Below, piece by piece: positions 3,001 through 12,000 of a stretch of 64,000 bases of DNA. The first letter of the stretch is position 1, and each line of letters begins with the position of its first letter. Source of the stretch: Zootoca vivipara (taxonomy: Eukaryota). The DNA is taken from NCBI RefSeq assembly GCF_963506605.1, contig NC_083278.1, forward strand, positions 4,526,001-4,590,000. The letters run 5' to 3'. Made by a program: the position numbers.

Positions 3001-6000
3001 GAGTAGAATAAAAAGTGCAAAGAGAAACAAAAAGTGGTGAAAGAAGTTGCCATTATTACTTCTTGTACAGATCAGAAGGTTAGAAGGAAAGCAGACTTTT
3101 CTGGTTGGAGCTATTAATCCAACATGCTTTAAGATATTTTATATTAATTTAGAATAAGTAGAATACATATTTAGAATATTTAATACTATTAGTATTTACT
3201 TTGAGAATACATCCTAAAATTGTATAATAAACATATAAATAAAACATTCTTATTTTGAGTTTTAGCACAAGTCAAAAAAAATTCCCCAGAGTCTACAATA
3301 GTGTGCTCCACTTCAATCCTATTTTAGAAATGCTGCACCACTGAATCAAAAGGTCAATAATTTGGTGATAAGCATCTATTCTTAAGGAAATTCAGGGGCA
3401 AACTTACAATCTTTCTTTTGCAAAGCAGACCCAAAATAATTCTAGTCATTAAATCGTCCTGTGGGAAGGATCCTGGTGTCTTTTTATTTTTTTTGTTGCT
3501 GTTTTAAATTGTGTTTTAAAGCTTCTTGTAAACCATATTGGAAATATTGCAGAACATAAACAACTGTAATAAATGAATAAATAACTTGCAGTCCTACATA
3601 CATATATTATTTACCCAAATAGATGTCACATTTAAAAAGTTGTTTCATTTTAATTTTAAAAAATAATTAAAATATAACTACAGTATAAAAATCCCCATGC
3701 AGAGCAGACAAGAACTGAGCTTTATCTGAACCCCAAACTATATGGAACTCAAAGTACAGATGACTTTACAACAACAAAGTGGCTGTCAGTCCTTGTGTAC
3801 CTTGTAGTAATATATTTTGTCAGCCTCATGCTCTACGAAACCTCTTAACAAGAGTATCCACCTTCTCTCCAAAGCTGAGAAAGCTTTATTAGAGTAGTGC
3901 CAGTACTGATTTCTTACTACTGCCGCCAAACTCAGGTGTACCTGCGCTATGGAAAAATGTTTCAGCCAGTTTTCAGAATCTTTGGTCCCTCCAGGTTGAA
4001 GACTTCTGCCAGCCTTGCTGGGTGATCTACTCAAGGGTGTAGAGACTGCTGGAAGAGACTTACAAGAAAGCAGGGTGGAGTGAGGAATCACAGTGAATAC
4101 ACCATATTCTATCAACCCAAGATTCAAATTTGCCTACACAAAGTATTATCCTCAGCATTCATCCAAAAGAAAATAAAAAAATTTCTTCAGTAGCACCTTA
4201 AAGACCAACTAAGTTTTTATTTTTTTTATTTTTTTGGTCCCTCCACTACCATGGAGGGACCTGGTTTGAACAGAGATATCGGATTCTTATCTCATTATAC
4301 ATGATAAGCGATCTTCAGCCATCTCAACCCTTGCTTTTTCATGCAAAACCATTTGCAGTCGTTTTCGGTCATCAACAGCTATCGGTCCACCACCCTTCTG
4401 AGTGATCCCCCATCCCCACCCCCTCCCCACCCCTTCTCTACATAAGTGCCTGGGGACTCCTATTTCACTGTATCTGAAGAAGTGTGCATGCACACGAAAG
4501 CTCATACCAAAATAAAAACTTAGTTGGTCTTTAAGGTGCTACTGAAGGAATTTTTTTATCCAAAAGAAAGTTGAGAAGGATGGAACACTACATCCTGAAA
4601 TCTTTTGCTTTCAGTTCAGTGCAGTCAGTACTTAAATGAAATGTAATTCCTTTCCCATGTCTCTAGAAAATGGAGTGCCCCTCTCCAAATGGAAACAGGG
4701 CCACATGTAGGCCACCATAGTCTTCTTGCTCACACCAGAATCTGGCCACCATTTCAGGGCTATAATGGTCTGGCAGCCACATTCTGCAACCACTGACACA
4801 CCTGCACTTAATCAACTGACCTGCTTGATTTTTCTTAAAGAAAAGACTAGCTTAAGACTAGCTTTCCCACCCACCCCCACCACCCTCTGTATATATACAT
4901 AAGGGTCTGACTCTTCTGTTTCAAGTGTATCTGACGAAGTGTGCATGCACACAAAAGCTCATACCAAAATAAAAACTTAGTTGGTCTTTAAGGTGCTACT
5001 GAAGGAATTTTTTTATTTTGCTTTAGACTACTGTATGACTTACAAAGTAACCACATAAACATTGTGAATAAATAAAATCCTGTGCATTTCTCTGCTACTA
5101 CAAACATTTGGAAACTAAACAGGACTCTTTTTTGACATGATGAGTAATTATATAAATTGCCTTCAATATATAACTGCCTTAGCTTAGCCACCGATGGAGC
5201 TGACAGTCCATTAACAGGAAAAGCATGCAGCTCAATAACAATGCTCAGCATTTGTACAGTACTTTGAGTCTAATTCCTTGCAATCCCTGTCACCCCCCTG
5301 TGTCCGATGGGGGCCTGAGGCTGAGAGAGAAAAGCGTGGCCAAGGCCATGTGATGCAGTCATGGCAGAGGTGACATTCAAAGCCAGGATGCAAATGCTTA
5401 GCTCAGTGCATTATTTTTATTATTTATTTCAAGTATTTATATACCACTTTTCATCTGAAAATTTCCCAAAGGAGTTCAATAGCCATTGTGTTATGCCTGC
5501 TTGTAAATATGAAGATAACCCTTCTGAGCAGGATAAGGAAAATTTCCCCAGATTCTTATTTATATTCCAGCTTTTCTCCAAGGACCTCAAAGTGGTGCAC
5601 ACACTTTCCCCTCCCCTCTCTGTTTTATCCTCACAGTGACCCTGTGAGGTAGGCTAGACTGAGAGACTGTGAGTGCCCCACGGTCATCTTTGGGGAAGAG
5701 TGGGGATTCAAATCCTGGTTCCCCTGGTCCATCACTCTTGCCAGTACACCACCATTGGCTCTTTTGAAATGTAAAGAATCAAGGTCTAGCTAAGGAATTT
5801 GGCTACTTATGTTGAAATCAGTTGACCTCACAATGGGAGTTTTAGATTTATTAATTTTTTAAAGAAACTTAATTAAATCAAAATGAAACGCTGTTTTAAC
5901 TGTTTTGCACAGCACTGCCTATTTTGTGATAGTGGATATGGTCCCACGTTAAGCACCTAGTCACTCACTTGTTTCCGCTCCGCCCTCATCTGCTCCATTT

Positions 6001-9000: not shown

Positions 9001-12000
9001 ATTTCATGGTGTCTCCTACATTTTCATGTATCATATTAAATTTATTTTGAAATATTCAGTGTTGTTAAGATGCTATACTTTTGAACTGCATATGCAGTCA
9101 ACTGGATCCAGAAGGAATTTAGAGCAAGAGGAAATGAGTTTATCCCAACTGCATGTTGAGTATATGTGGCACATGAATTTGGCTAATTTTTAAAAGCAAA
9201 ATCTAAATATAGAGGCAGAATTCGATCAATTATGTAGTTCTTTACTAAATCAACCCAATGCCCAATTATCCAGGTTGCACACTGAGAACTGTTGTGTCAC
9301 AAAGGTTCATACACATTGTTGTCCTCTTCTCAAGTCTTAGATACATAAACGTCAGGTTACTAAAATATTGACCTTTTTTGCTTGGGCATATCTACGATAT
9401 CGATGCCGGGCTTTTGGACAGCAAACTTTTATAAGCCAGTCTTCTCCTGAGTTGTCACTATCTAAAGATGTTGCTGAATCAGTCTAGAAAAAACAACAAA
9501 CACATTAAAGTGAATGATAAACAATGGAAACTTTCTGCATAGATGGCTTTCCCCAACCAACTAGAACTGCCATTTGTAGAAATGCCGGTTTGTTTAGAAG
9601 CCTACAAAGAATGTTCTTGATAAAATTCTTCTCAGATGTCAACTGCTAAAAGTAATGGGGAAATCCTCATAACTAAATAATCAGGTGTGATCCCTACCTC
9701 TTGCTGAACTGCCCATTCTAGAACAGGGATGGGGAACTTGAGGCCCTCCAAAGAGTTCCTGGGACTACATGCCTCACCACTGGCCATGCTGATGAGGCCT
9801 GCTGGGAACTGAAGGCCATGGAGATCTGGAGGACCAAAGGTTCCCCATCCATGTTTAGAACAATATCATTTATAGAGGGAGTTGGGTTGGGAACACGACT
9901 ACCTCAGTGCTTACCGAACATACGTAAGCTGCAGGGATACATACACCACTTTGAGAAAATCTGCTGTCTACTTCATGGGGGTGGGGGAAGAAAAAAACCT
10001 CTTTGCGTATTCATGTTATCACTAGCAGGGTATTTATAACAATGATGATTTTGCAGCTTCTGATGTTTTGTTGTTTATTATTACATTTTTGTGCTTGTAA
10101 TTATGTATTTTTTCACATGGCTTTATCTATTGAAAGGCGGCTAAGGAATAAAACGATGAATGGATGGGTGTAAAATACAGATACTTTAGATTATCTGTGC
10201 AATTATGTGCATGTTTCCTCAGAAGTCAGCCCCACTGTACTCAATAAGATCCCCCCCCCCAGGTTTAAGATTGGAGCTCGTCACCGTTTGCCCTTTGTAG
10301 TTTTAAGCACACATGTAAATATTTTGCCCAAGCTATGTGCTTTTATGGTTCTGAGACTCTTAGCCCCGAGTTTAAACTTTTATGTCAGTGGTTTCCTCAA
10401 CCTGCCTTGCCTTGTAGATACAAAGGAAGGTCTTATCCCAAAGATGCTTCGTGTGGTTTAAAATCTGCAAGCGACAGAATGTGATGCTTGTACCTTTCAT
10501 GAACTTCAGATACTTGCTTAGATATGCTTTTAGTAGCAATGTTTACTCGTTTTTGGAAGCCAGCAAGTTGCCCAGGAAGCCAACTACACAACTTCAGATG
10601 AAATGTGCAATGGGTAGTGCCTAATACCAGTATATCGGCATTTCTTTTAAATCAGGATTGGTTTAAACTTAAATGGGGCTTATGGTAAGTTATCTTGCCA
10701 GTGGTGTTTTAAGTATTACACATGGATTTTATTATAGTTTTTGAGTGGAAGCATAACTGTAATTCTGCTTCCAGCTGGTTATGGATGGGCAATGCTTCAG
10801 CAGTGCTAAAGAGTCCTAGTGCTCAAATGACCGAAATCTACCGGTAGTTTGTGTGTGACAGACAGCAGAGCCAGAGTCTCAGAAATTCCAGCAGAGGGCT
10901 GAAGCCTCTCTCTGATTGGCTACCCAGCCAGCCTGCCAGGTGGAGCCAGCAGAATTGTGGCATGTGGTTAGGGTTGCCAGACTTAAGAGAGGACAGGACT
11001 TCTCTGCCTTTAATTGCCCTGCTCTCTTTTGAATCTGGAAACCTTAGAGAAACCAGCAGACCCTTTGTTTGGAAATTAAACAAAGGGTCTGCTGGTTTCT
11101 CTTTAAGGTTTCCAGACTCAAAAGAGAGCAGGGCAATCAATTAAAGGCACAGAAGTGCTGTCCTCTATTGAGTCTGGCAACCCTACATGTGGTCTGTATA
11201 TTTTGCATCTCTCAACTATTAAATTCTAGCATTGCTGTTAATTAGTTTATTCCTATCTGCAAAGCAACCTTTTCTGAATATGCACCTTTTCTAGTTAAGA
11301 ACATTGTGTTGCTTTACATGTTACAAAAGTCCTAAAATAAGCTGTTTCCATGTAGCAAACCATACAGAGTAGTAATCTTTGAGGGGTCAGACAGGGTTCA
11401 GGCTGAGAAATAGGGCTTGGTCTGAGATGGGAGGGTGAAAGAGGAGAGCGCAAAATATGGTCTGAAGCTCAACATCAAAAAAACCAAGATCATGGCCACT
11501 GGTCCCATCACCTCCTGGCAAATAGAAGGGGAAGAAATAGAGGCAGTGAGAGATTTCACCTTCTTGGGCTCCTTGATCACTGCAGATGGTGACAGCAGTC
11601 ACGAAATTAAATGACGCCTGCTTCTTGGGAGAAAAGCAATGACAAACCTAGACAGCATCTTAAAAAGCAGAGACATCACCTTGCCGACAAAGGTCCGTAT
11701 AGTTAAAGCTATGGTTTTCCCAGTAGTGATGTATGGAAGTGAGAGCTGGACCATAAAGAAGGCTGATCGCTGAAGAATTGATGCTTTTGAATTATGGTAC
11801 TGGAGGAGACTCTTGACTTGAGAGTCCCATGGACTGCAAGAAGATCAAACCTATCCATTCTTATGGAAATCAGCCCTGAGTGCTCACTGGAAGGACAGAT
11901 CCTGAAGCTGAGGCTCCAATACTTTGGCCACCTCATGAGAGGAGAAGACTCCCTGGAAAAGACGTTGATATTGGGAAAGATGGAGGGCACAAGGAGAAGC

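What the first reader, a model, noticed from the sequence alone, without database searches (positions are those of the whole stretch)
5999..9441. Exon-level internal repeat (D/E)WLI(K/R)(V/L)xCP(K/R)A in the novel protein
Seen: DWLIKVCCPKAR (9441-9406) and EWLIRLRCPRAQ (6034-5999) share 27 of 36 nt. Differences include a synonymous change and conservative swaps (D/E, K/R, V/L, K/R). Both motifs follow an acidic Ser/Thr-rich stretch and precede a basic tail at the exon end. The 10.4-kb exon has a weaker echo (LWDKTFLCIYKARQ). Inference: modular exon duplication under coding constraint. This is the best internal evidence that the gene is real, and the motif is a candidate functional unit.
Basis: partly seen in the sequence, partly recalled or inferred. 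Interest (0 to 1): 0.7.

Follow-up and report, generated by a model that had tools for sequence, protein, structure and literature searches.

The report
Duplicated motif exons in lizard FAM228B
Two small exons of a lizard cilia/sperm-tail gene (FAM228B) are ancient copies of each other and carry a strictly conserved short motif of unknown job, so the gene is real but not new, and the motif is a modest lead.

Summary
The two 36-nt stretches exist as described and share 27 of 36 bases in frame. Each is the other's only strong match in the window: the next best is 21-22 of 36, and 100 shuffles reached at most 24.

They lie in exons 2 (9483-9373) and 4 (6073-5969), minus strand. The gene is not novel. 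It is the lizard orthologue of FAM228B, a protein on the outer surface of the C2 microtubule of the ciliary central apparatus.

Both exons are phase 0-0 cassettes in a disordered N-terminal extension. The motif reads [DEQ]-W-L-I-[KR]-[VL]-x-C-P-x-A. Across 21 squamate species it is as conserved as the best part of the folded domain.

Profile comparison supports paralogy of exons 2 and 4, with E 8.6e-11 in squamates and 1.1e-10 in turtles, crocodilians and birds. Most turtle models (9 of 13) carry both copies. Some bird models keep copy 2 only, and crocodilian models have none intact. The duplication therefore predates the squamate-turtle split.

The 10.4-kb "echo" is not a copy.

The function is inferred: most likely a docking peptide, less likely a Cys-Pro heme/redox motif.

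The parts
12531..12629 (-). Exon 1 (coding part, 33 codons, MEAPEGS...LPDR) inside a CpG island; start codon at 12629-12627; donor GTGAGT follows.
   Evidence: tblastn of Lacerta agilis FAM228B-like P0007 against the window; flanks and length; GC 0.556 and CpG o/e 0.67 for 12001-14000.
9373..9483 (-). Exon 2, 111 nt, phase 0-0, carrying motif copy 1. Peptide: TDSATSLDSDNSGEDWLIKVCCPKARHRYRRYAQAKK.
   Evidence: Acceptor ...ttttctag and donor gtcaat. 100% identical to the public Zootoca vivipara LOC118082609 proteins. Copy-1 profile built without Lacerta hits it at E 4.8e-21 in a six-frame scan.
9394..9453 (-). Conserved core of copy 1 (protein residues 44-63, SSGEDWLIKVCCPKARHRYR).
   Evidence: Mean major-residue frequency 0.925 and entropy 0.29 bits over 20 columns in 22 squamate rows. 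Coordinates computed from the exon start.
7949..8032 (-). Exon 3, 84 nt, phase 0-0 (PTKTGFSHLDKEEDFIALTEWMPITPYQ). It lies between the two motif exons.
   Evidence: Acceptor cattacag and donor gtacag read. Matched by P0007 residues 71-98. Orthologous to archelosaur exon 3 (hhalign E 4.2e-8).
5969..6073 (-). Exon 4, 105 nt, phase 0-0, carrying motif copy 2. Peptide: VYPGVPRQESTDLEWLIRLRCPRAQMEQMRAERKQ.
   Evidence: Acceptor atcctag and donor GTGAGT. 100% identical to P0007 residues 99-133. Copy-2 profile hits it at E 1.6e-22; copy-1 profile hits it at E 8e-6 with the next best at 0.41.
5993..6052 (-). Conserved core of copy 2 (residues 106-125, QESTDLEWLIRLRCPRAQME).
   Evidence: Invariant S108 L111 W113 L114 R116 L117 R118 C119 P120 A122 M124 E125 in 22 of 22 rows. 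Major-residue frequency 0.916, entropy 0.32 bits. Weak helix 109-118 in both AlphaFold2 models.
3942..4058 (-). Exon 5, 117 nt, phase 0-0 (SLPAVSTPL...DSENWLKHFSIAQ). It carries the family-wide 'WL' segment where similarity to mouse FAM228B begins.
   Evidence: The PDB match 9ijj_q starts at P0007 residue 158.
2719..2793 (-). Exon 6, 75 nt, phase 0-0 (AIVNERQDVVGSTQALLERENCFVR). It is the last exon of the gene inside the window; the rest of the FAM228 domain lies beyond position 1.
10402..10464 (-). It is not part of the feature: no evidence that it is an exon or a motif copy.
   Evidence: Absent from the public models seen. Negative bit scores against four motif profiles.

Best explanation
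Exons 2 and 4 are genuine cassette exons of the lizard orthologue of FAM228B. Mouse FAM228B is modelled in the in-situ sperm structure on the outer surface of the C2 microtubule of the ciliary and sperm-flagellar central apparatus.

The two exons are paralogues from an old internal exon duplication. It may have copied a two-exon unit, exons 2-3 giving exons 4-5. It happened before squamates and turtles separated, and purifying selection has kept both copies since.

Each exon encodes one copy of a short linear motif: a Ser-rich acidic run followed by [DEQ]-W-L-I-[KR]-[VL]-x-C-P-x-A. The motif sits in an otherwise fast-evolving, disordered N-terminal arm that sauropsid FAM228B carries ahead of the family-wide domain.

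Inferred mechanism: the motif is a docking peptide that orders only on binding. It would form either a short helix capped by Cys-Pro or an amphipathic strand with W, I, V/L and C on one face. It would tether the arm to a neighbour on the C2 microtubule, either tubulin or one of CFAP65, KIF9, SPAG16 and CFAP20. Two copies would give bivalent binding. Because all six exons are phase 0-0, splicing can produce proteins with two, one or no copies. The invariant serines just upstream are possible phosphorylation switches.

What is shown: coding status, gene identity, paralogy, conservation, predicted disorder.
What is inferred: binding, the partner, and regulation.

My odds: real FAM228B exons 0.95; duplication 0.85; docking-peptide function 0.4.
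For: Gene identity:
- The exon 2 peptide is 100% identical to public Zootoca vivipara LOC118082609 proteins and 97% identical to Lacerta agilis 'FAM228B-like'.
- The Lacerta protein P0007 matches mouse FAM228B chain 9ijj_q at E 1.1e-47 and Chlamydomonas FAP239 at E 2.2e-5.
- The AlphaFold2 model's best fold match is 9ijj_q, E 2.3e-9.
- Passages of PMC12297659 and bioRxiv 10.1101/2024.08.06.606614 place FAM228B on the C2 microtubule, in the base under CFAP65 together with KIF9, CFAP20 and SPAG16.

Exon structure:
- Five of the six exons have an AG acceptor (exon 1 is the first coding exon), all six have a GT donor, and all have lengths divisible by 3.

Paralogy:
- hhalign of exon 2 against exon 4 gives prob 97, E 8.6e-11 over 28 columns in squamates. 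The other 14 exon pairs give E of 0.06 or more.
- The same test in turtles/crocodilians/birds gives E 1.1e-10 over 27 columns, including a shared tail.
- No column shuffle reached either observed score (0 of 60 each; shuffle maximum 14.3 against 43).

Orthology of each copy across clades:
- E2-A2 1.6e-21 and E4-A4 2.6e-17, against cross-copy values of 8e-8 and 2e-10.
- In a 28-column tree the copy-1 and copy-2 labels separate with one change in 93% of bootstrap trees. The branch itself is weak, 61/0.

Two-exon unit:
- Archelosaur exon 3 against exon 5 gives prob 52, E 1.4e-4. None of 60 shuffles reached it.

Constraint:
- Motif cores show 0.92 major-residue frequency and 0.3 bits. The rest of the N-terminal arm shows 0.66 and 1.32 bits. 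Domain residues 198-262 show 0.91 and 0.37 bits.

Disorder:
- Most of residues 1-155 are below pLDDT 50, and no 10-residue block mean exceeds 54, with both the 22-row and the 88-row alignment. Motif 2 appears as helix 109-118, the highest-scoring 10-residue block within residues 1-150 (mean 54).

Distribution in public models:
- Squamates: 38 of 44 carry both copies.
- Turtles: 9 of 13 carry both copies.
- Birds: 17 of 76 carry copy 2 only; 59 carry none.
- Crocodilians: 0 of 4 carry an intact copy.
Against: - No expression data were available. All gene models are computational predictions.
- The similarity covers only 19-28 residues. At the DNA level it covers 34 nt.
- The two exons are not adjacent. 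The squamate exon 3 against exon 5 comparison is not significant (E 0.31), so the two-exon-unit idea rests on one E 1.4e-4 result.
- Within turtles the two copies are slightly more alike (0.41) than each is to its squamate counterpart (0.38 and 0.33) over 28 residues. That leaves room for gene conversion or parallel constraint.
- The motif is dispensable in some lineages. Crocodilian models have lost it, most bird models lack it, and no copy was found in the 101 of 140 family representatives that are under 50% identical to sauropsid proteins.
- AlphaFold2 gives no confident contact of the arm with the domain.
- No partner was tested.
Confidence: 0.6

Rival explanations
1. The invariant Cys-Pro dipeptides are heme-regulatory (CP) motifs. 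Alternatively, as in heme oxygenase-2, the pair of CP cysteines forms a thiol/disulfide switch. The N-terminal arm would then make the central-apparatus protein respond to heme or redox state rather than simply dock to a partner.
For: - C-P is invariant in copy 2 (22 of 22 squamate rows) and in 19 of 19 complete copy-1 rows. It is also kept in turtle and bird copies.
- Aliphatic residues (L, I, V/L) and basic residues precede CP, and the region is flexible. This matches the description of CP motifs in passages of PMC10377097.
- In the models the helix ends at residue 118, just before C119-P120. That paper describes the same arrangement for p53 and IRP2.
- The abstract of PMC2742820, seen only in a search listing, says HO-2 Cys-Pro motifs form a redox switch.
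Against: - Conservation extends well beyond CP. W, L, I, R, L and A are equally invariant, which heme ligation alone does not explain.
- Birds keep only one copy and crocodilian models none, so a two-cysteine switch cannot be general.
- A CP dipeptide is short and common.
Confidence: 0.1
2. The two motifs did not arise by duplication. Two unrelated exons converged on the same short sequence because both bind the same site.
For: - Exon 3 separates them.
- DNA similarity is only 34 nt at 79%.
- Outside the core, the squamate tails differ (RHRY... against QMEQ...).
- Short linear motifs are known to evolve convergently (general knowledge).
Against: - Both exons have the same phase and near-equal length (111 and 105 nt), and the motif sits at the same offset in each.
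- In turtles the similarity runs on through the tail to the exon end, 27 aligned columns at E 1.1e-10.
- The following exons (3 and 5) also resemble each other in archelosaurs, E 1.4e-4.
Confidence: 0.1
3. The match is chance, or both segments are pieces of a repeat or transposon with no coding meaning.
For: An all-against-all search of a 64-kb window is expected to give about 2 pairs at 27 of 36 by chance.
Against: - Both segments are in frame in public protein models of about 20 squamate species and in turtles and birds.
- They are nearly invariant over that range.
- Neither exon +-600 nt has another copy in the window, and the flanks of the two exons are unrelated.
- Profiles built without the lacertid sequence find exactly these two places in the six-frame translation of the window.
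Confidence: 0.01

Closest known systems
Mouse FAM228B (PDB 9ijj chain q), a C2-microtubule outer-surface protein of the sperm central apparatus, and its Chlamydomonas homologue FAP239 (7n61, 7som)
   Same: The lizard gene is its orthologue. The Lacerta protein residues 158-367 align to chain residues 20-232 at E 1.1e-47, and the fold search gives the same top hit. The window's exons 5-6 encode the start of that shared region.
   Different: The mouse chain has only 19 residues ahead of the shared 'WL' segment. The lizard protein has about 155 more, encoded by exons 1-5, including the two motif exons. No motif copy was found in the family representatives that are under 50% identical to sauropsid proteins. 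The papers describe an extra C-terminal domain relative to FAP239 and, in the passages returned for the term FAM228B, no N-terminal arm (their supplementary figures were not seen).
Heme-regulatory Cys-Pro motifs, e.g. those of heme oxygenase-2
   Same: An invariant Cys-Pro preceded by aliphatic and basic residues, in a flexible region, present in two copies.
   Different: The conserved block is about 20 residues, with an invariant Trp seven residues before the Pro (six before the Cys) and an Ala two residues after the Pro. That is far more than a CP motif needs. No heme or redox evidence exists.
Cassette-exon duplication producing repeated short linear motifs in disordered protein regions (a general, well-known route of protein evolution; recalled, no specific paper read)
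   Same: Symmetrical phase-0 exons of similar length, each carrying one motif. Public isoform models contain two, one or no copies.
   Different: The copies are separated by another exon. They appear very old: the shared presence in squamates and turtles implies roughly 270-280 million years (date recalled). They are kept with near-invariant cores.

Membership tests
FAM228B / FAP239 family (label PF28229 as precomputed in the protein database) | Significant sequence similarity of the encoded protein to an experimentally placed FAM228B | tested here: met
   The Lacerta orthologue P0007 matches 9ijj_q at E 1.1e-47 and FAP239 at E 2.2e-5. The window's exons match P0007 at 76% (exon 1) and 93-100% (exons 2-6), and exon 2 matches the Zootoca protein at 100%. 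PF28229 is not in the Pfam copy searched here, so that label rests on the database's own precomputed column.
FAM228B / FAP239 family (label PF28229 as precomputed in the protein database) | The conserved helical domain is encoded at this locus | tested here: inconclusive
   Only exons 1-6 are in the window. The match to P0007 stops at residue 197 at window position 2719. The bulk of the domain must lie beyond position 1.
FAM228B / FAP239 family (label PF28229 as precomputed in the protein database) | Location on the C2 microtubule of the central apparatus | not testable with these tools
   Known for mouse from passages of PMC12297659 and bioRxiv 10.1101/2024.08.06.606614. Assumed for the lizard by orthology.
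Internal exon duplication | Same intron phase and similar length | tested here: met
   Exon 2 is 111 nt and exon 4 is 105 nt. Both are divisible by 3 and flanked by AG and GT.
Internal exon duplication | Sequence similarity beyond chance between the encoded peptides | tested here: met
   hhalign E 8.6e-11 (squamates) and 1.1e-10 (archelosaurs). None of 60 column shuffles reached either score.
Internal exon duplication | Copies adjacent, or part of a repeated multi-exon unit | tested here: inconclusive
   Exon 3 lies between them. Exon 3 against exon 5 gives E 1.4e-4 in archelosaurs (0 of 60 shuffles reach it) but E 0.31 in squamates.
Heme-regulatory Cys-Pro motif | Conserved Cys-Pro dipeptide with aliphatic residues on its N-terminal side | tested here: met
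   L-R-C-P in copy 2 and V-[CR]-C-P in copy 1 are invariant. The criterion comes from passages of PMC10377097.
Heme-regulatory Cys-Pro motif | Transient heme binding through the cysteine | not testable with these tools
   Needs spectroscopy of peptide or protein with hemin.
LC3-interacting region (LIR), considered because of the acidic run followed by Trp | Core [W/F/Y]-x-x-[L/I/V] (consensus recalled, not taken from a call) | tested here: not met
   The residue three places after Trp is K or R in every squamate, turtle and bird copy listed.

The most novel reading that the evidence does not exclude
The paired W-L-I-x-x-x-C-P blocks are a sauropsid-specific heme or redox-sensing module grafted onto a structural protein of the ciliary central apparatus. 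Sperm or cilia motility in reptiles, and through the single copy in some birds, would then be tuned by heme or thiol oxidation acting directly on the C2 microtubule base.
Probability: 0.06. Interest if true: 0.6.

Novelty: new variant of a known kind. Interest (0 to 1): 0.3.

Why it matters
The finding settles that this part of the window is a real, already catalogued gene, so the 'novel protein' flag can be dropped.

It also shows something the public annotations do not state. Reptile FAM228B carries a long disordered N-terminal arm with two ancient paralogous motif exons. Their cores are as conserved as the best-conserved part of the structural domain.

FAM228B has only recently been placed in the mouse sperm central apparatus, and nothing is known about lineage-specific additions to it. 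A 20-residue block held nearly invariant across squamates, and recognisably kept in turtles and some birds, is a concrete handle for finding a binding partner or a regulatory input at the C2 microtubule.

The wider importance is modest. The motif has been lost or degraded in crocodilian and many bird models. No copy was found in the more distant family members examined.

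Tried and rejected
- **Human contig check.** A recalled 19-nt Alu-head motif gave 0 matches at up to 3 mismatches, and there are no N runs. The window is lizard by 100% identity of exon 2 to a Zootoca vivipara record.
- **Pfam on the two exon peptides.** No family at E up to 10.
- **Pfam on four public proteins of the gene.** Only a sub-threshold DUF2972 hit for one. PF28229 is not in that Pfam copy.
- **PDB by sequence with each exon peptide.** 0 hits at E up to 10.
- **ESM Atlas with residues 34-133 of P0007.** The best score was 0.76 (a DUF5528 cluster), below the level where the tool's own text treats hits as meaningful, so I discarded it.
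- **Third copy at 10.4 kb.** Rejected.
- **Transposon origin.** Rejected.
- **LIR motif.** Rejected because position +3 is K or R.
- **Zinc site using the His of copy 1.** Rejected because turtles lack that His.
- **Squamate exon 3 against exon 5 paralogy.** Not significant, E 0.31.
- **Common origin of all four exons 2-5 from the family-wide 'DWL' segment.** Only weak cross-type scores, E 0.002-0.012, uncorrected for about 26 comparisons. I left this as speculation.
- **Literature.** Four motif strings gave 0 papers. Among the 20 of 43 FAM228B papers and 10 of 25 FAM228A papers whose titles and abstract starts were listed, only the two central-apparatus papers looked relevant, and in those I saw only the passages that name FAM228B.
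- **Complex prediction.** It was never accepted because the queue was full, so no result exists.
- **The search for homologous proteins with exon 2 alone.** I repeated it with six in-frame intron residues added.
- **Exon 4.** At 35 aa (38 up to the next stop), it is below that tool's minimum and was never searched there on its own.

Full report
**What the window is**

The window has no N runs and a CpG observed/expected ratio of 0.355, with three CpG-rich blocks. A recalled Alu-head motif is absent.

The exon 2 peptide is 100% identical to two public proteins of Zootoca vivipara (LOC118082609). It is 97% identical to Lacerta agilis proteins, one of them named 'FAM228B-like'. I therefore take the window for lacertid lizard DNA, not human. 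Nothing in it had to be left aside on that ground.

**The observation**

Read on the minus strand, 9441-9406 gives DWLIKVCCPKAR and 6034-5999 gives EWLIRLRCPRAQ. They share 27 of 36 bases.

- With either 36-mer as query, the other is the only position among 127,930 (both strands) that reaches 24 matches or more. The next best scores are 21 and 22.
- In 100 shuffled windows the maximum was 24.
- The binomial expectation for one query is 6.7e-5.
- An all-against-all comparison of 64 kb would still give about two such pairs by chance. The DNA figure alone does not carry the case.

blastn of each exon with 600 nt of flank shows one alignment of 34 nt at 79% (E 0.001) at the motif. Nothing else scores below E 0.2. 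Neither exon has another copy in the window. This excludes a shared repeat.

**Gene structure**

Exon 4 is too short for that tool. Its identity comes from mapping a named public protein, Lacerta agilis P0007, onto the window by tblastn. The joined step was left out.

The mapping gives six minus-strand exons:

| Exon | Window coordinates | Length (nt) |
|---|---|---|
| 1 | 12629-12531 | 99 |
| 2 | 9483-9373 | 111 |
| 3 | 8032-7949 | 84 |
| 4 | 6073-5969 | 105 |
| 5 | 4058-3942 | 117 |
| 6 | 2793-2719 | 75 |

Exons 2-6 follow an AG, and exon 1 is the first coding exon. Every exon is followed by a GT, and every length is divisible by three. The gene continues past position 1 of the window. It scores -1.8 to -2.3 bits against four motif profiles.

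**What the gene is**

- P0007 matches the mouse FAM228B chain of PDB entry 9ijj at E 1.1e-47 (residues 158-367 against 20-232). It matches Chlamydomonas FAP239 at E 2.2e-5.
- An AlphaFold2 model built on 88 family sequences has 9ijj_q as best fold match, E 2.3e-9.
- Passages of PMC12297659 and of bioRxiv 10.1101/2024.08.06.606614 describe FAM228B as an outer-surface protein of the C2 microtubule of the sperm central apparatus. It forms, with KIF9, CFAP20 and SPAG16, the base on which CFAP65 sits. I saw only the passages returned for the terms FAM228B and FAP239, not the supplementary figures.

The protein is therefore not novel. The mouse chain has only 19 residues before the shared region. 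The lizard protein has about 155, which is what exons 1-5 encode.

**Conservation**

In 22 squamate proteins of 21 species, copy 2 has S108, L111, W113, L114, R116, L117, R118, C119, P120, A122, M124 and E125 invariant. Copy 1 reads W-L-I-K-[VI]-[CR]-C-P-x-A in all 19 rows where it is complete.

| Region | Major-residue frequency | Entropy (bits) |
|---|---|---|
| Copy 1 core (20 residues) | 0.925 | 0.29 |
| Copy 2 core (20 residues) | 0.916 | 0.32 |
| Rest of residues 1-172 | 0.66 | 1.32 |
| Best part of folded domain (198-262) | 0.91 | 0.37 |

Both AlphaFold2 runs leave residues 1-155 with no 10-residue block mean above 54, most of it under 50. Motif 2 is drawn as a helix 109-118 that stops before C119-P120. 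This is the usual picture of short linear motifs in a disordered arm.

**Are the two exons paralogues?**

- Profile-profile comparison of squamate exon 2 against exon 4 gives probability 97, E 8.6e-11 over 28 columns. The other 14 pairs among exons 1-6 give E of 0.06 or worse. An earlier cut gave E 1.1e-8.
- Profiles built without the lacertid sequence, run over the six-frame translation of the whole window, find exactly these two places. The copy-1 profile hits exon 2 at 4.8e-21 and exon 4 at 8e-6, with the next hit at 0.41. The copy-2 profile hits exon 4 at 1.6e-22 and exon 2 at 1.2e-3, with the next hit at 0.57.
- None of 60 column-shuffled targets reached the observed hhalign score (shuffle maximum 14.2 against 43.4).

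**How old?**

A search with the domain part of P0007 returned named FAM228B proteins of turtles, crocodilians and birds.

- Turtles carry both copies, in the same exon order.
- Some neognath bird models keep a copy-2-like exon. Parrots have a degraded form.
- Crocodilian models have a copy-1 remnant without Cys-Pro and no copy 2.

Counts over all named models:

| Clade | Models | Both copies | Copy 2 only | Copy 1 only | None |
|---|---|---|---|---|---|
| Squamates | 44 | 38 | 5 | 0 | 1 |
| Turtles | 13 | 9 | 2 | 2 | 0 |
| Birds | 76 | 0 | 17 | 0 | 59 |
| Crocodilians | 4 | 0 | 0 | 0 | 4 |

Many of these are alternative or partial models, so 'none' is weak evidence of loss.

In archelosaurs, exon 2 against exon 4 gives E 1.1e-10 over 27 columns, and the similarity runs to the end of the exon. 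Each squamate exon is closest to its positional counterpart: E2-A2 1.6e-21, E3-A3 4.2e-8, E4-A4 2.6e-17, E5-A5 2.7e-12.

A tree of 51 motif segments needs one change to separate copy 1 from copy 2 in 93% of bootstrap trees. With 28 columns the branch itself is weak, at 61/0. One chance regex hit sat on a long branch and was left out of the groups.

Plain identity is less tidy. Turtle copies 1 and 2 are 0.41 identical, against 0.38 and 0.33 to their squamate counterparts. Some gene conversion or parallel constraint cannot be excluded. Overall, a single duplication before the squamate-turtle split is the simplest reading. The date of roughly 270-280 million years is recalled.

**A two-exon unit?**

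In archelosaurs exons 3 and 5 also resemble each other around a basic run followed by D-W-L-x-Q (probability 52, E 1.4e-4, 14 columns; 0 of 60 shuffles reach it). In squamates the same comparison fails (E 0.31). A duplication of the pair 2-3 into 4-5 would explain why the motif exons are not adjacent. It is suggested, not shown.

**Range in the family**

A profile of the squamate alignment found 402 family members at E up to 0.001 among 1.84 billion representatives. The best 150 were listed.

- Of the 140 that were new, 10 carry the motif. Each of these 10 has a squamate, turtle or bird protein as its best named match.
- 101 of the 140 are under 50% identical to any named sauropsid protein, and none of them has the motif. 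The 16 of these distant representatives (under 62% identical) with long N-termini show only the family-wide 'WL' segment.

These representatives carry no names, and the tool that could name them was off. 'Sauropsid-specific' is therefore an inference from similarity. It covers only the 150 listed of 402.

**Mechanism**

Nothing here tests function.

The pattern W-L-I-[KR]-[VL]-x-C puts W, I, V/L and C on one face of a strand. Alternatively it puts W, L and L on one face of a helix. It is preceded by invariant serines in an acidic run. It is encoded on phase-0 cassette exons that public isoform models include or skip.

I read it as a docking peptide that ties the arm to a neighbour at the C2 microtubule, with two copies giving bivalent binding. 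My odds for this reading are 0.4.

The rival reading that I find most interesting is a heme-regulatory or redox Cys-Pro motif. The local sequence fits the description in passages of PMC10377097. However, conservation reaches far beyond Cys-Pro, and one or both copies are missing in birds and crocodilians.

A complex prediction of the arm against the domain could not be run because the queue was full. No eukaryotic partner sequences were available to the tool.

**Known or new?**

The gene and its models are public. The repeat and the motif are in neither Pfam nor the PDB. Four motif strings occur in none of the 8.4 million papers searched.

I found no paper dealing with the N-terminus of FAM228 proteins. 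That rests on the 20 of 43 FAM228B listings and 10 of 25 FAM228A listings I saw, and on the passages that name FAM228B in the two central-apparatus papers.

I class it as a new variant of a known protein family, of modest interest.

**What stayed unchecked**

- No reptile genome DNA or transcript collection was on hand, so exon-versus-intron conservation and expression are open.
- Supplementary files of the papers were closed.

Noticed in passing
window 19464-20213 (-): A 250-residue open frame with a BTB_2 (potassium-channel tetramerisation type) domain, E 9.2e-19. It lies upstream of FAM228B on the same strand. One public Crotalus adamanteus model (P0026, 568 aa) fuses such a domain to FAM228B, probably a read-through prediction.
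   Followed up: partly
window 22491-23759 (-): A 423-residue uninterrupted frame with RING (E 3.4e-9) and B-box (E 5.7e-10) zinc fingers, i.e. a TRIM-like gene or exon.
   Followed up: no
window 39309-39875 (-), 41883-42401 (+), 56139-56696 (+): Retroelement remains: two reverse-transcriptase fragments (E 3e-13 and 8.8e-23) and an integrase core (E 1.1e-11).
   Followed up: no
window 11426-12153 (+), inside intron 1 of FAM228B: Open frames whose translation looked to me like the tail of an RTE/BovB-type LINE (a recalled resemblance). Pfam found no family in the four frames tested.
   Followed up: partly
window 911-983 (-): A tRNA-like sequence: Rfam tRNA 32.9 bits, just above the gathering score, and ARAGORN tRNA-Ile with anticodon GAT. 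It lies in a FAM228B intron and is possibly the head of a tRNA-derived SINE rather than a gene.
   Followed up: no
window 35181-35439: A tandem repeat of a 122-123-nt unit, 2.1 copies, 85-86% matches.
   Followed up: no
window 24001-26000 and 44001-46000: Two further CpG islands (GC 0.58 and 0.62; CpG o/e 0.87 and 0.81) with long open frames on both strands but no Pfam match. They are likely promoters or first exons of other genes.
   Followed up: no
public proteins P0005, P0017, P0028, P0033 (not in the window): An alternative isoform replaces the whole FAM228 domain after exon 5 with a proline-rich tail. The tail's last ~35 residues are conserved across the lizards and the snake seen (Zootoca, Tiliqua, Erythrolamprus); one snake model is labelled 'formin-like protein 20'. 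If real, the N-terminal arm with both motifs would also be made without the microtubule-binding domain.
   Followed up: no
exon 5, window 4058-3942, and family alignment A2: The 'WL' segment at the start of the long first helix (W164 in P0007) is kept through the whole family consensus (WLxxKxxxxxQA). It weakly resembles the motif exons (E 0.002-0.012). It may be the ancestral piece from which the arm's exons were copied.
   Followed up: partly
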